The notes beneath the pieces are model-generated. The model had not been told where the DNA came from. It saw nothing but the letters and a program-made list of their open reading frames with translations, and did no database searches. Position numbers and translations under genes: made by a program. Below are positions 48,396 to 60,750 of a stretch of 64,000 nucleotides of DNA, piece by piece. The stretch is from Lytechinus pictus (Eukaryota): NCBI RefSeq assembly GCF_037042905.1, contig NC_087245.1, forward strand, positions 36,024,001 through 36,088,000. Direction: 5' to 3'. Every line of letters starts with the position of its first letter. Positions within the stretch are counted from its first letter, which is position 1.

Positions 48396-49062
48396 GTTAG
48401 TTTACACCGGAAAAAGGAGTGCTGTATACTCCACCGGTGCTTATAGATCGATAACCACACAATGACACCAAGCATTGAATTTTTCAATATTGTAAGTGGT
48501 GCAAGTTCAACACCCATTGGTGTTATTATAATAAATTATGTCTGCATTATTCTAACACTGTTCGCTGTTGTTATTATAACAAAATTATGTATGTTATTTT
48601 AACACAGTTCGGTGCTGTGTGCAAACTCCGTGGTGTTGCCTCATCTTAACACCGTACTTTTACAGTTTACCTACAAATACATGGCCGTATGCAGGAATTT
48701 TGACTGGATGTTATGCTCAAGTATAATATATGCAAAGGAGAAGGCGAAGCGACCGATCTGAAAATAGTATTTTATTTCATCTTGTTTTTGCTTTTGCAAA
48801 TTTAAATGAGTGGATCGAGTGCACAATTTGTGTGGATAATCAGGGAGCCAAATCCAACCCCCATCGTAAGGTTATGGGTTTCGGATACCGATATTTGACT
48901 ATATCACGAAATTCAATTACTTTTACAAACATTTCTTATTTATACACCTGGTATAAAAAAATTCGGGGGTGGTGGGGTCTCATTTTTAAATATTATTTTC
49001 AAAGCATGTTATTGGCTTTAATTTGACATCTTTTCCTTTTATTTTTCTCCATTTATTCACAG

Positions 49063-49337
49063 CTGGTAGCCGAGAAGTGCTCCAGATAACCCGGAGTTGC
49101 ATGTTGGATACGTTTTGTCTAGACGAAATAACGCGAAGCGGCAATAAAGAATGTCTCATCAATCCATCATCGCATTATGTATGTACATTTTGTTGTCATT
49201 CTGACTTTTGCAACGACTTGCCCGTTGGACGGGCGACAGAGGGCGCTCGATGTCATCTCGTGGCGGTCTGGATTGCAGTTGCCGTCAGCCTCGCTACGAT
49301 TTTCACGCTTGGTCGGTTCCGGATGCCCGATTCGTGA
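49063..49337 (+). CDS. Ly6/uPAR gene terminal coding exon: second half of the LU domain (..CTFCCHSDFCN) plus a hydrophobic GPI-signal-like tail
   Basis: Acceptor ctccatttattcacag, in phase with exon 2. Contains the CCxxxxCN LU signature, then a spacer and the hydrophobic LVAVWIAVAVSLATIFTLG, stop TGA at 49335-49337. The LU domain has 12 Cys with spacing like the LYPD1/LYPD6 subtype. Confidence 0.93.
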
Positions 49338-55159: not shown

Positions 55160-55408
55160 AACACCCCGCTTATAGCGGGGCGACACGGAAGACGGTCCTT
55201 GGAAAGACCCTCTCGTGCAATCGGCCCATCGGCCCCAGCCTGCATGTTGCACCCAGCTCAACTCATGAACTTTGACCTAATTTGCCTGCGATCGCGATCC
55301 TATATCCGACGAGCTAAGCTAGCTAGCTAGCTGTACTGTACGTTGCCGAGAGACGATACGCTGTCTGTGTTTACCGTTTTGTTCTGCTACAGCCTACGCA
55401 ACGGAGTG
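55160..55408 (+). promoter_or_regulatory. Candidate CpG-rich promoter and non-coding first exon of the LRR gene
   Basis: High local CpG density and a donor-like GTG|gtaatg at 55409. The exon at 59506 begins with an acceptor, so an upstream non-coding exon is expected. Confidence 0.45.
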
Positions 55409-56260
55409 GTAATGTACGAAAATTACGGTTTCTTTCTCTTGCTTGCTTTTCAGATATTATGAAAAACTAGTTTTGCCTTCGTTTTACATGTAAAAGATAT
55501 AAATACCGTGCCATAAAATCGATAACTTTCCTTCTTAGTACCGGTACGTTTGCTTGTTGTCTAGAAAATTAAGTGTAGTCCCACGTGTTTATATTTTTGT
55601 AGAGGTCTGACACTGAGTGACAGTTTTTGGCAGAGAAGCCAGTGCCAGTGGCACTGCCACTGCAGTGCCGAACAGCGAAGGAACTGAATCTCACTTCTCA
55701 GATCTCCGAACTCCGAACAGCGGAGGAACTGAAACGAGAGAGAGAGTGGCAGTGCAGTGAGTCTAGACCAAAGTTATGATGGGGTGACCTAGTCTTGAGG
55801 ACTCCATGATGATGTCTTTTTTAATACTTTGTCTTTGTCTTTGACATACCGTACGGTACTTCTTCATCATTCAGACATTCGAGTCTTCAACCGCCCTTCA
55901 TATATTAAGAGACACATGTAAACAAAGATGGATTTCCCTAGGAAATCCATCTTTTAATATAAAAATCAGGTAAATTGTTGTGATTTTATTAATCTCTACA
56001 CCTTCCTACGCCTAATGCGTAGGAAGGTTTTAAAAATGGTCAATTAAACTGTTAAAAAATGAAGGTTTCTTACCAGACCGATGTCGTGTAGATCCCTCGA
56101 TCCAAATGTACACAACGCAAATACAGTAGGGTCGACCCTTGAACCGCTTATGTATGACATACATCCGGTTAGCGATGCCGTTTTGAAGAACAATTTATAG
56201 ATAAAAATTATTATTTCACAAATACTAAAATCTATTACGTGATTATAAATAATTAGCATT

Positions 56261-57810
56261 ATACTAATCTCAGGAAATGGTTCCTCAACAGAGAACATCT
56301 CCCTTTTTGTTGATTACCACATTAAGCCCCTTGTCTCACGTGCACCCTCTTACATCCACGACACTCCAGACTTTCTCAGGAAACTAAATGTTATCAAGGA
56401 CCAGATACCCGAGACTGCGATCATCGGCACTTTCGATGTTTCTTCACTGTACACCAGCATTCCCCACGATGAAGGTATCCAAGCATCATGTGAAGCCTTG
56501 GCCGCCAGTGGCCATTCCAGTCCTCCCATATCCGATATCAAATCTCTGATGTCTCATGTACTAACAAAAAACAACTTCACATTCATGGGCAAGCACTACC
56601 TACAGATATTCGGTACAGCAATGGGCACCCGGATGGCTCCTTCATTCGCCTGTCTCTTCATGACCAAGCTGGAACAGCAGATGTTAGATTCAGCCCCCTG
56701 TCGCCCATGGATTTGGTGGCGTTACATAGACGACATTTTCTTCATCTGGACCAGGGATGAAGACAGCCTCCATACATTCATTGACCACATCAATTCCTTC
56801 CACAGGACCATCAAATTCACTTCTGATTTCTCCCAACAGGAAACCCACTTCCTTGATGTTACAGTCCAGAAAAAGTCTAATGGTATCACCACTACCCTAT
56901 ACTCTAAACCCACAGATACCCATCAGTACCTCCACTCATCCAGCTGCCACCCCCGTCACTGCAAAACCGGCATCGCTTTCAGTCAAGCCCTCAGACTTCG
57001 CCGTATCTGCTCCGAGGACCCTGATTTTTCCTTCCATGCCAGGAATTTGCAGAAACATCTCTGTGCCAGGGGCCACGGGGCCAGGGCAGTCCAACTGGCA
57101 ATTAACAAAGTACGTTCTCTCCCCAGATCTGAAGTTCTCAAACCAAAAAGTGACAAGGAGACCACCGACAGAATACCGCTTGTGACCACCTTCCATCCGA
57201 TCTATCCCCTCTCCGCAAAATCCTGTGTGATAACCACCACATTTTACACACTTCTGATCGTCTCCAACAGGCCGTTCCCGATACTCCCCTTCTAGCATAC
57301 CGATGCCCACCGAATCTCAGGGACCTCATTGTTCGTGCTGAAGTGCCCTCCCTCACTAACCATTCTTCTCCCATACAGCATGGCACCTTCAAATGCACCA
57401 GCAACAGGTGCATCATATGTGAAATACACCTTCACGAGGGCGATACTTTCACCAGCAACTCTACCAGCCTGTCTCACCAAATCAAGGGCAACATCACATG
57501 CACTACCACTAATGTTGTATATCTCATCACTTGCAGAGTTTGTAGGGTACAATACATAGGGGAAACCAAGACCACACTCAAGAAACGATTCTACGGGCAC
57601 AGATCCACCGTCAACACAGCAAAGCTGGACACTCCAGTTGGCCGCCATTTTAACCTCCCCAACCACTCCATCACTGACATGATGCTACAGGGCATAGAAT
57701 CTTTAGGTACCCGTCCTGACTCAGTCCGTACTAGCAGGGAGAAGTTCTGGATGAGACGACTTCGCACCACCCAAACTCATGGCCTGAACATCCAAGAGGG
57801 GAACGACTGA
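56261..57810 (+). pseudogene. PLE RT-GIY-YIG polyprotein remnant: no N-terminus, single 1-nt deletion near 57198
   Basis: The frame of ORF 56498 is open from at least 56261. At cat-cc-gat (57194-57201) homology moves to the frame of ORF 57343 (DLSPLRKILCDNHHILHTSDRLQQAVPDTPLLAYRCPPNLRDLIVRAEV...), ending at TGA 57808-57810. No in-frame stops seen. Confidence 0.9.
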
Positions 57811-58850
57811 TTATTCTTTCCTATCCACTTTCAATTTATAAATACATATAATTTTTCCCCTCAGCTCTTTTGAATAGTTACATTATAGTTTCTTCCTCTA
57901 CTTTCCTCCCATATCTCATACAAGCTCAGCTCCAATTTTTCCTTCCTTATTCAGGCGATATAATAATTATTATATATATATATTTGTTTTTTCTCCACTC
58001 ACCTCTTTTAGATTTACCACATTTGCTTATTTACATGTATACTATGGTTTCTTCATAATACACCCCCTCTCTTCTATATTTGCTTTTACCTTTTTAGGCA
58101 ATTTGCTTCCTCTTTTTCACATATACAGGTTTTTTTTTTGTTTTTTTCCTACTATATAGTCTTATGTTTTTTTCCCGTCACACCTAGCGGATTACAATAT
58201 CAGTTACACCATATGTGTATTTATATTTTTTCATATACATTTCTTTTTTGGATATATTTATATACATATCACTTATAGATACATATTTACACTTACCTTC
58301 TTCTCTTAGTTTGTTTAATGCTTTTTCATATATACTTATATGTCTTTTGCACATTATCAGTTGTTCCCCATTCTTTTCCTTTCCCCCCCCCCCCCCCACT
58401 CTTATGTACCAGTTTATTATGCCTTTCTTTGTAACCTGTTTGACCCACCTCTCACTAATTCTCTTGTTATTCATCCCATTATCACTGTTTTGTTCCAGAT
58501 CCTGTTTGATGTTGCCTGCCTCATTATCTTAATCCCTCTTGGCTTGAGGTCTTGTACTGGCCTTACTTACACTAACTTCCCTTTGTGTCTGCCTACTCTC
58601 TTTTTCATCCCCTTCACTAACCTGATTGGTCTTCTCTACTCACTAATGCCCCTTTTGTCTCCTTGTTTCTAGTGTTGCTGTAGCTTGTTTGTGGTTTATA
58701 TTATGGTTGTTCCACTTTATATGTTTGTCATTTTGCCTCCGACGAAGATTCTGCTAGGATCGAAAGCTTAGGCCCCTTTTTGACTTTCTAATTTACTCCA
58801 TTGGCTCTCTTTTATTAGATAAGCAGTTTTCAGCAGCTTCTTTTTGCCAA
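56266..58850 (+). mobile_element. Penelope-like retroelement (Neptune type), 5'-truncated, with a ~1-kb pyrimidine-rich 3' region
   Basis: RT motifs (ISGNGS..TENISLFVD, DVSSLYTSIP, GTAMGTRMAP, WRYIDDIF, FLDV, LYSKPTD), a Cys-rich linker (CTSNRCIIC) and a GIY-YIG endonuclease (NVVYLITCRVCRVQYIGET...REKFW). Hammerhead-like motif near the 3' end. Boundaries are approximate. Confidence 0.92.
58735..58773 (+). ncRNA. Minimal type-I hammerhead ribozyme-like motif in the PLE 3' end
   Basis: Sequence GCCT-CCGACGA-A-GATTCT-gct-AGGATC-GAAA-GCTT-AGGC. Stem I is GCCU/AGGC, core CCGACGA (CUGANGA with U4>C), stem II is 6 bp, then GAAA. A palindromic AAGCUU replaces the stem III loop. Position matches known PLE-associated minimal hammerheads. 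Confidence 0.7.
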
Positions 58851-59546
58851 TTATTTATGATCACGTAATAAATTTTAGTATTTTAGTAAAAAAAAGTTAC
58901 ATAATCAGGTAAAAATATGGCTGTCAAAAAACAATTAATAAAAAGATAAAATTAAATGTTTTGTCAAGACAGCCACGGGCCACCACTACATTAAGTAAAT
59001 CATTTTCCAAGCAGATATCATTAAAAATGTGTGTACAATGTGGTACTGACTGATTCTATAGCATTTTGGGCGCTAATGCAGTTTCGCACTGGGCGACTTC
59101 AAGAAAATTTCCCCACATAATTTAATTCAATCACAGAATATCAACATTTTAAGTCTTTTTAGAGAAAACCAATTCAAATAATAGAGCTCAACCAAATCGC
59201 TGGCAAGATCGTAGACTACAAATTTATTGATGAAAATGTAAGGTACATGTACAACTGTACATTAGGTTAAGGTGTTTCCCTGGTATCGCAATCTCAAAAT
59301 TCTATGCCTATCAACAAACGTGTGATGTGCAGGAAAAGGGTTCTTAAAAAGTGTGATCTTATTTAGCACATGAAAGTTTTGTGGAAATTTATGCAAAAGG
59401 TCAAATCAAATCATTAATTTTTTCCTGATTTTACCGTGAACTGGTATATGTTTTGATGTTAAATGCATGTTTAAAAAACATATATTAATTACTTTTTATC
59501 CACAGATATCCCTAGAATGGTATAGATTGACACGAAAACGTCCACC

Positions 59547-60750
59547 ATGGATTTGGAAACGATTGAAGAGATTGACGATGCTGCCCTTTCTGAGTTTGGT
59601 AAGGAGACAGAAGAGAGGGAAGAACTTGAAAAAGAGTCTGAAGACCTGAAGACAGAAGTGCCAGATGACGTCGATGAGAAAACGGATGGAGATTCCTCGG
59701 AGAAAAGAGAGGATGAGAACGCAAATGAAATAATTTTGACTTCTGGTGAAGAAACTCGTCCGGTGAATACAGTTGTGGATTCAGATATGCAGACATGTAC
59801 TCTTGACGAAGCACATGAAGTTATTCAAGAAATCTCAAATGAGGAAAATGTTGCCCCTGCACCATTGGATGTAAGTTCATTGGTATACAGGGATACTCAT
59901 GGCAAGTTTTGTTTGGATCTATCAGAAGAGGACATCAGCGTGATACCCTCAGACACCTTTGAGCTAGATTTCTTAAATTACTTTGCAGTGACATGTTTAC
60001 CTCTGTACAAGATCCCATCTGGTCTCAGTTACCTTCGGCAGCTTGATGCCTTGATACTGCGAGAGTGTTCTTTAGCAGAGTTCCCAAAGAGTATATGTGC
60101 ATTGCCGCTCCTGGAAAACTTAGACTTGAGCGGAAATGAAATCCTGGAGATTCCGACGGAAATAAGAATGCTATCCTCGTTGCGACAGATTGACCTATCA
60201 GACAATCAACTTACCGTCTTACCCGATGAATTCTGCCACCTGCGTGAACTCATCTGCGTCTTTCTCTCCCAGAACAAATTGACCAGCCTGCCCACCAACA
60301 TCTCGCATCTTCGCAACATCCAGGTCTTTGAGATGAACAATAACATGTTGAAATGGTTACCGAAACAAGTCTGTCTCTTGGATCAACTTGTGAAGCTCAG
60401 TCTTTGTGGGAACTACCTTCAGACGTTGCCTGCGGACATCGAGTACCTCTTTAATCTCCAGGAGTTGCATCTCGAACAGAACAGCTTCTTCTACCTCCCC
60501 ATCCAAATATACTGGCTTCCGGAGCTGGAGGAACTGTACCTGAGTCAGAATCATATCCAGGAGATATCTCCAGAGATTCAGAAGCTCACTAAGCTTAAGG
60601 TCTTAGATCTGAGTAACAATGAGCTAAGTACAGTCCCACAAGAGATATGTCTTCTCCTAAACTTAGTATTTCTTGGTCTCAGCTCCAACAGGCTAACATC
60701 TCTCCCAGACAACATGAATAGACTTTACAAGTTGGTGGAATTCTTAGTAG
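59547..60750 (+). CDS. Leucine-rich repeat protein, coding exon 1 (acidic N-terminus, then about 10 LRRs of 23 aa)
   Basis: Perfect Kozak ccaccATGG. Exon acceptor ttttatccacag ends at 59505. Repeats of LxxLxLxxNxLxxLPxxIxxL, e.g. LENLDLSGNEILEIPTEIRMLSSLRQIDLSDNQLTVLP. Donor TAG|gtatgt at 60751, phase 1. Confidence 0.95.

What the first reader, a model, noticed from the sequence alone, without database searches (positions are those of the whole stretch)
58735..58773. Variant minimal hammerhead ribozyme at the 3' end of an intronic Penelope-like element
Seen: GCCU-CCGACGA-A-GAUUCU(gcu)AGGAUC-GAAAGCUU-AGGC folds as a type-I hammerhead with three departures from the textbook core. These are U4>C, an extra A after A9, and a loop-less stem III that is the palindrome AAGCUU, with predicted cleavage after CUU at 58769. 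Known: PLEs carry minimal hammerheads that are thought to need dimerisation through such palindromes. Inference: this single copy is sense to the LRR gene, so if active it could cut the host pre-mRNA ~740 nt upstream of the acceptor at 59505.
Basis: partly seen in the sequence, partly recalled or inferred. Interest (0 to 1): 0.7.

Follow-up and report, generated by a model that had tools for sequence, protein, structure and literature searches.

The report
Penelope minimal hammerhead with U4C core
A small hammerhead-type RNA motif does sit in the tail of a young Penelope-like jumping gene in what is likely a sea urchin; it matches the form published for these elements in 2014 except for one core letter that likely weakens cutting, so it is probably a passenger, not a cutter of the neighbouring gene's RNA.

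Summary
The motif is real. It is the only hammerhead-descriptor hit in 64 kb, and related elements carry it with covarying helices. It lies 924 nt behind the ORF of a 5'-truncated, about 1%-diverged Neptune-type Penelope-like element (PLE; 56268 to about 58849), likely in a sea urchin.

Two of the three 'departures' are the published norm for PLE minimal hammerheads: the extra A after A9 and the loop-less palindromic helix III. Cervera & De la Peña 2014 even list GAAA-GC-U-U in a turtle. Only U4>C is unusual. The three closest intact relatives have CUGAAGA, but one high-depth DNA contig of other copies is identical to the window across the motif, so C4 looks subfamily-level, not private. U4C is known from a viroid, where it strongly lowers in vitro activity.

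Host pre-mRNA cleavage is unsupported: there is no second copy in the window, no RNA-end pile-up, almost no reads from this copy, and no splice joint proving it is intronic. This scan noted similar PLE hammerheads, mostly with other core variants, on other DNA. Verdict: a minor variant of a known kind; activity untested.

The parts
58735..58773 (+). Minimal type-I hammerhead motif: stem I 58735-38/58770-73; core C3 C4 G5 A6 C7 G8 A9 at 58739-45; extra A 58746; stem II 58747-61 (G10.1-C11.1); GAAA 58762-65; loop-less palindromic helix III AGCU 58765-68; N17=U 58769
   Evidence: sequence; descriptor scan and shuffles; homologue alignment and covariation
58740..58740 (+). C at core position 4 (U4C), the only departure from the published PLE consensus CUGANGAH; position 7 (58743) is also C where the closest relatives have A, but N7 is free
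   Evidence: shared by contig X9 record 24
56268..58849 (+). 5'-truncated Neptune-type Penelope-like element, about 1% substitutions from another copy's contig; 3' end near 58849, about 80 nt past the predicted cut
   Evidence: X9 record 18 (18 other letters, 11 gap letters over 1873 nt; continues 5' of 56268 into further PLE coding sequence); 119 X23 reads with loose ends behind 58849
56273..57208 (+). RT part of the ORF (residues 393-705 of a 905-aa relative, 89% identical); a frameshift near 57199 is private to this copy
57199..57810 (+). C-terminal linker with C-x4-C-x2-C motif, GIY-YIG endonuclease, stop codon
   Evidence: clade features from PMC8557442
57811..58734 (+). 924-nt pyrimidine-rich 3' UTR / pseudo-LTR; 56-61% identical to the four relatives aligned, against 35-36 of 39 nt for the hammerhead
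59504..60749 (+). Splice acceptor AG (59504-05) and large exon of an LRR gene (ATG 59547, in-frame stop upstream, so the upstream intron would be in the 5' UTR); expressed weakly on the + strand; upstream exon not located
   Evidence: X1 record 8 begins at 59506 with 0 other letters, X23 depth 3.7 on one strand only
56220..56258 (.). Left arm of a 39-bp inverted repeat (right arm 58845-58883) flanking the element; likely a host hairpin repeat into which the PLE inserted
   Evidence: (high depth at 55885-56355 in X10, joint 56242->58849)

Best explanation
This is the pseudo-LTR hammerhead motif of a young, 5'-truncated Penelope-like retrotransposon, carrying a U4C core change that other copies share and that likely weakens cleavage, so this lone copy is likely an inert passenger beside the LRR gene. 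Shown: the anatomy; its position in the element; homology and covariation with canonical-core hammerheads of sister families; C4 in a contig of other copies; insertions that end about 80 nt past the predicted cut. Inferred from published PLE work: in tandem or partial-tandem PLE transcripts two motifs would pair their AGCU palindromes into a 4-bp helix III, possibly helped by the element's own protein, and cut slowly after U58769. Reverse transcription would start downstream of the ribozyme on uncleaved RNA, so a weak ribozyme would not block spread. A single copy with no partner, a 4-bp helix III, U17 and U4C would rarely cut.
For: Same stems with canonical CUGAAGA in the closest relatives L002-L004 (78-86% ORF DNA identity). 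The motif is conserved (35-36/39) while the rest of the UTR is 56-61% identical. Helix III swaps among AGCU, AAUU, AUAU and ACGU. X9 record 24 (304 nt, depth 131.5, 58480-58781) has 3 other letters and 2 gaps, all listed outside the motif, so it carries C4 and C7. Element ends lie at 58780, 58792 and 58849, all past the cut site. PLE monomers are inactive and dimers weak (PMC4209133). The Anolis PLE hammerhead needs protein, is dispensable for insertion in vitro, and shows no RNA-seq ends at the cut site (PMC11167929). U4C lowers activity considerably (PMC3088659); mutations in the CUGA turn other than the 3-8 pair swap gave low activity in a pairwise scan (PMC9901934). No second copy in the window. 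No end pile-up (table 6).
Against: No cleavage assay exists for this sequence. C4 sharing rests on one contig in one run: 213 rows of other letters were not shown, so the C/T share at 58740 in X23, X1 and X10 was not seen. The viroid U4C variant stays infectious, so weak in vitro need not mean inert in vivo. In X23, sense depth rises from 37 at 58696 to a mean of 141 in 58711-58867, while antisense rises only from 127 to 193; this is unexplained. A fragment library read at 6% is a weak test for RNA ends. Only 5.2 kb downstream is visible, so a partner copy further along the gene is not excluded.
Confidence: 0.72

Rival explanations
1. Functional variant: C4 (perhaps together with C7) is tolerated in the dimeric or protein-assisted fold, and the subfamily's ribozyme cuts about as well as its canonical sisters in tandem PLE transcripts.
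For: All other features are intact and the subfamily looks young. Positions 4 and 7 both differ from the sisters. A viroid U4C hammerhead suffices in vivo. A 4-7 contact in the full-length structure is recalled, not found in the papers searched.
Against: U4 is kept in 23 of 25 distinct motifs and in all 44 published rows read. The two other C4 cases look like decayed or single copies: L014 has a non-palindromic helix III, and L057 has a U4 twin in L065. No strong positive epistasis in this region beyond the 3-8 swap.
Confidence: 0.13
2. One reading: the copy lies sense in the 5'-UTR intron of the LRR gene and cuts the pre-mRNA 736 nt upstream of the acceptor often enough to affect expression.
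For: It lies on the same strand as the expressed exon, and the acceptor at 59504-05 is supported. Conserved intronic hammerheads exist in amniotes.
Against: No partner in the window; the predicted AAGCUU duplex is only -4.3 kcal/mol. At three private sites 78/79, 125/125 and 163/164 X23 reads carry the other letter, so this copy is hardly in that RNA. There is no joint across the element and no end pile-up. Donor-like sites also lie between the element and the acceptor (58909, 59243), so the intron is unproven. The insertion is young and shows no sign of domestication.
Confidence: 0.05
3. C4 is a private or minority decay mutation, and the family master is canonical.
For: All close sister families are CUGA. 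This copy has other private changes, including a frameshift.
Against: X9 record 24 differs from the window at the private sites yet matches it at 58740 and 58743. No near-fixed difference within 58711-58867 is among the rows shown (the list is truncated).
Confidence: 0.09
4. Chance resemblance to a hammerhead.
For: Folding z-scores are near zero, and there is no Rfam match.
Against: 36 of 79 related loci carry the motif against 0.35 hits per shuffled set; covariation.
Confidence: 0.01

Closest known systems
Minimal hammerheads (min-HHRs) of metazoan Penelope-like elements (Cervera & De la Peña 2014, PMC4209133)
   Same: Type I; 4-bp helix I; 6-bp helix II closed by G10.1-C11.1; extra nucleotide after A9; palindromic loop-less helix III; U-rich 5' flank; pLTR location. 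The Chrysemys row has GC U U after GAAA, and S. purpuratus rows have CUGACGA.
   Different: C at position 4; all 44 published rows read have U4. Activity untested here.
Hammerheads of sister PLE families in metagenome loci L002, L003, L004, L018
   Same: Stems I and II identical in L002-L004 (one-base insertion in L018); same position behind the ORF; shared downstream motif in L003, L004 and L018.
   Different: Core CUGAAGA instead of CCGACGA; N17 is A in L002 and L018; helix III is AAUU in L003 and L004.
PAc hammerhead of the Anolis Poseidon element (PMC11167929)
   Same: The hammerhead lies upstream of the element's 3' end: RT starts 85-92 nt past the cut there, and this insertion ends about 80 nt past it.
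   Different: A different clade (Poseidon against Neptune-type linker here); protein-assisted cleavage was shown there and not here.
Natural U4C viroid hammerhead (as cited in Perreault et al. 2011, PMC3088659; primary paper not held)
   Same: The same core substitution.
   Different: A viroid ribozyme, not a PLE minimal dimer-type motif; much reduced in vitro but sufficient for infectivity.
Conserved intronic hammerheads of amniotes (RECK, C10orf118)
   Same: Type I hammerhead sense within or near a host gene, of retroelement origin.
   Different: Those are conserved across mammals and cleave in vitro; this is a young insertion with no conservation shown and an unproven intron.

Membership tests
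PLE minimal hammerhead (min-HHR) | Located in the pLTR of an RT + GIY-YIG element, same strand as the ORF | tested here: met
PLE minimal hammerhead (min-HHR) | Core CUGANGA (U3-A8 covariant allowed) | tested here: not met
   CCGACGA: C3-G8, G5, A6, A9 present, U4 replaced by C
PLE minimal hammerhead (min-HHR) | GAAA and NUH site | tested here: met
   GAAA 58762-65, CUU 58767-69; N17=U in 9 of 25 related motifs
PLE minimal hammerhead (min-HHR) | Extra nucleotide between 9 and 10.1; G10.1-C11.1 | tested here: met
   A58746; G58747-C58761
PLE minimal hammerhead (min-HHR) | Palindromic 15.2-16.2, no or tiny loop III | tested here: met
   AGCU; double-sided changes among relatives
PLE minimal hammerhead (min-HHR) | Helices I and II conserved with covariation across the family | tested here: met
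   99% of 96 cells paired; helix II has 2 pairs with double-sided change; helix I has none (3 invariant, 1 one-sided)
PLE minimal hammerhead (min-HHR) | Self-cleavage as a dimer (or protein-assisted) | not testable with these tools
   no end pile-up in one RNA run, a weak test
Neptune-clade PLE | C-terminal GIY-YIG with CX2-5CxxC linker and CCHH motif | tested here: met
   C-x4-C-x2-C before the GIY-YIG domain, with the C, C, H, H residues seen by eye (definition)
Neptune-clade PLE | RT phylogeny places it with Neptune rather than Nematis | not tested
   no labelled reference set at hand
Rfam hammerhead families | Covariance-model score | tested here: not met
   none of the 9 matches at E<=10 in 58000-59500 is a hammerhead
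Domesticated intronic hammerheads (RECK / C10orf118 type) | Inside an intron of the host transcript | tested here: inconclusive
   acceptor supported, upstream exon not located, no joint across the element in the RNA run
Domesticated intronic hammerheads (RECK / C10orf118 type) | Conserved at the orthologous locus across species | tested here: inconclusive
   young insertion (about 1% from another copy); orthologous loci not available; no listed piece bridges element and flank

The most novel reading that the evidence does not exclude
A recently active sea-urchin PLE subfamily fixed a U4C (plus A7C) catalytic-core change and still amplified to many copies while keeping the fold and the dimer palindrome. 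This would be a natural experiment showing in a genome that full hammerhead catalysis is not needed for PLE retrotransposition, or that PLE RNPs rescue a core mutation that cripples other hammerheads.
Probability: 0.35. Interest if true: 0.45.

Novelty: new variant of a known kind. Interest (0 to 1): 0.22.

Why it matters
What PLE hammerheads do in vivo is still open: PMC8557442 calls their function unclear, and PMC11167929 finds cleavage dispensable for insertion in vitro. A subfamily that spread with a U4C core, next to sister families with identical stems and a canonical core, would give a ready-made wild-type versus variant pair for testing this. The single copy in this window, and the idea that it regulates the LRR gene, add little.

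Tried and rejected
Rfam scan at E<=10: no hammerhead. Folding z-scores: uninformative. No whole genome is held, so copies could not be counted. The repeat finder was swamped by microsatellites. A self-BLAST and descriptor scans found no second pLTR or hammerhead in the window. Viral contigs: no PLE relatives and no motif; GTDB: no motif. No listed holder is on record as RNA, which is no evidence either way. The read lay hid 213 letter rows, 28 indel rows and 23 joints, including any row for 58740. The LRR homologue search (residues 1-200, longer proteins only) gave 2 distant hits and did not locate upstream exons; an in-frame stop upstream of the ATG makes coding upstream exons unlikely anyway. 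A bacterial promoter/terminator scan was irrelevant. Lünse et al. 2016 (PMC5785218) and one further paper id were not held. Literature searches for a PLE U4C core or a sea-urchin study found only Perreault 2011 for 'U4C'; the library lacks most subscription papers, so this does not show the variant is unpublished. Earlier findings by sequence: none. Rejected: that the extra A and the loop-less palindrome are novel; that U17 is unusual; that the motif is chance.

Full report
OBSERVATION. RNAfold places stems I and II in the minimum-energy structure, but the energy is no better than shuffles (z -0.28, -0.20 and +1.69 for 39, 81 and 131 nt). Rfam lists no hammerhead among 9 weak matches. A hand-written type-I descriptor allowing C or U at position 4 finds this site alone on both strands of 64 kb. 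Block-shuffled windows gave 0.04 hits each with the loose form and none in 200 with the strict form. Because I wrote the descriptor knowing the motif, the stronger proof is homology, below.

CONTEXT. The motif lies 924 nt behind the stop codon of a + strand RT (PF00078) / GIY-YIG (PF01541) ORF. That ORF matches residues 393-905 of a 905-aa relative at 89% and 82%, with a frameshift near 57200. The closest named hit is a Lytechinus variegatus protein (85%), so the host is likely a sea urchin (inference). A C-x4-C-x2-C linker before the endonuclease fits the Neptune type as defined in PMC8557442 (passages); I built no tree. Reads define the element. A DNA contig (X9 record 18) matches 56268-58129 with 18 other letters and 11 gap letters over 1873 nt and continues upstream into more PLE coding sequence, so this copy is 5'-truncated and young. 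Loose ends fall behind 58849 (119 X23 reads), 58780 (61) and 58792 (58), so copies end 10-80 nt past the predicted cut.

THE THREE DEPARTURES. [quoted passage not shown] Their consensus is CUGANGAH ... GAAAN-palindrome-NUH. Their alignment has two Strongylocentrotus rows with CUGACGA and a Chrysemys row with GC U U after GAAA, which is this motif's AAGCUU and CUU site. My own sample agrees. Of 79 related loci from metagenome contigs, 36 hold a motif, giving 25 distinct ones, against 0.35 hits per shuffled set. The extra A is in 25 of 25, G10.1-C11.1 in 24, a loop-less helix III in 23, and N17=U in 9. The descriptor itself demands the 15.2-16.2 pair, so the palindrome count (24 of 25) is partly built in. 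It also missed two decayed copies (L011, L018) that BLAST found. In an alignment of the window with 8 close loci (8 distinct rows), 99% of cells pair, 6 cells change on both sides, and slid controls fall to 17-56%; relatedness inflates the shuffle test. The motif is 35-36/39 identical to four relatives whose remaining UTR is 56-61% identical. So the extra A and the loop-less palindrome are the class norm.

U4C. Position 4 is U in 23 of 25 distinct motifs and in all 44 published rows I read. L002, L003 and L004 have stems I and II identical to the window but CUGAAGA, so C4 and C7 are derived (inference). Is C4 private? In one search, X9 record 24 (304 nt, depth 131.5, against 25 for the ORF contig; depth is not a copy number) covers 58480-58781 with 3 other letters and 2 gaps. 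All five are listed: 58554, 58600, 58696, and insertions at 58597 and 58602. The contig therefore equals the window across the whole motif while differing at sites where the other runs also differ from this copy. C4 and C7 are thus carried by other copies, probably the majority path in that run. This is one contig in one run; 213 letter rows were hidden, so the share in X23, X1 and X10 is unknown. Perreault et al. [quoted passage not shown] A pairwise mutational scan (PMC9901934; passages) found low activity for mutants in the CUGA-turn region except the 3-8 pair swap. Searches for a PLE U4C variant found none, but Lünse et al. 2016 was not held (seen only as a reference and through a review passage, PMC6765202) and may list it.

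MECHANISM. Published: a single Schistosoma min-HHR showed no cleavage and dimers or trimers showed low cleavage. The Anolis PLE hammerhead cleaves only with the element's protein, its catalytic mutants do not impair insertion, unprocessed RNA is the main template, RT starts 85-92 nt past the cut, and RNA-seq shows no ends at the cut (PMC11167929; passages and section 3 part 2). Even tandem Xenopus retrozyme dimers cleaved in only 1 of 9 tests (10.64898/2026.07.22.740005; part 1 of 5 and passages). Here the insertion ends about 80 nt past the cut, so its template held an uncut ribozyme (inference), which fits a weak ribozyme being tolerated. I commit to this reading: a genuine pLTR hammerhead homologue, meant to act as a dimer in tandem PLE transcripts, likely attenuated by U4C, and a passenger at this locus (0.72).

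HOST-GENE IDEA. For: the LRR exon is read on the + strand only (X23 depth 3.7 and 1.4 against 0), and an X1 contig starts exactly at 59506, supporting the acceptor. Against: no joint across the element is listed for the RNA run; the upstream exon must be non-coding (in-frame stop before ATG 59547) and was not located. A few sense reads lie at 55257-55413, but donor-like sites also occur at 58909 and 59243. There is no second copy within the window, though only 5.2 kb downstream is visible. The AAGCUU duplex is -4.3 kcal/mol. At three private sites 78/79, 125/125 and 163/164 X23 reads carry the other letter, so this copy is nearly absent from that RNA, or that animal lacks it. No place has a pile-up of ends despite depth 580 at 58777, a weak negative for a fragment library read at 6%. 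One oddity remains: sense depth rises about 3.8-fold across the motif bin and antisense about 1.5-fold. Short 3' stubs of other copies and a related family sharing only 58727 onward (49 loose ends) could explain this. Domesticated intronic hammerheads (RECK, C10orf118, passages of PMC3088659 and PMC6155905) are conserved and active; nothing of that kind is shown here.

VERDICT. A real motif of a class described in 2014. It fails one defining core letter, so I file it as a variant rather than a plain member. The one new point is that the U4C core seems shared by a young subfamily. Earlier notes of this scan describe PLE minimal hammerheads, mostly with other core variants, on other genomes (8 of 9 shown, none of those described as U4C, unchecked). 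Interest 0.22.

Noticed in passing
window 56220-56258 and 58845-58883: 39-bp inverted repeat (92%) bracketing the PLE. The left flank 55885-56355 has very high depth in X10, and an X10 contig joins 56242 to 58849 with 12 other letters between, so the PLE likely inserted into the centre of a host hairpin repeat.
   Followed up: partly
window 58740-58744: The two derived core letters each create a CpG (C4-G5, C7-G8). Top-strand deamination at C4 would give the canonical U4, which complicates reading T alleles in old copies as ancestral.
   Followed up: no
window 58809-58827; L003, L004, L006, L018: A short motif downstream of the hammerhead is conserved across families. In L006 the 5' hammerhead and this motif precede an apparent GT-AG intron and the ORF start, as expected for a pLTR.
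   Followed up: partly
window 58696 vs 58711-58867 (run X23): Sense-strand depth rises from 37 to a mean of 141 while antisense rises from 127 to 193; antisense exceeds sense about 2.5-3.3-fold over 58397-58710. Unexplained; could reflect orientation bias of genic copies or short 3' stubs.
   Followed up: no
window 58727: 49 RNA reads share the stretch from 58727 onward but have different upstream sequence, suggesting a second family or non-autonomous element with the same hammerhead end.
   Followed up: no
L014:2928 (+) and L057:2536 (-): Two other C4 cores (CCGAAGA, CCGAUGA) occur among 25 distinct motifs. L014 has a non-palindromic helix III, and L057 has a U4 twin in L065.
   Followed up: partly
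L016, L044, L055: U3-A8 covariant cores in PLE loci, a published variant.
   Followed up: no
window 48990-49334 (+): A frame with CC-x-x-x-CN followed by a hydrophobic tail resembles the last exon of a Ly6/three-finger GPI-anchored protein (resemblance recalled, not tested).
   Followed up: no
window 59547-60749: LRR exon with an acidic N-terminal stretch. The best longer hit is a 1554-aa Branchiostoma LRR protein with Roc/Ras-type Pfam domains (PF08477, PF00071), 38% over 37% of the query part.
   Followed up: partly
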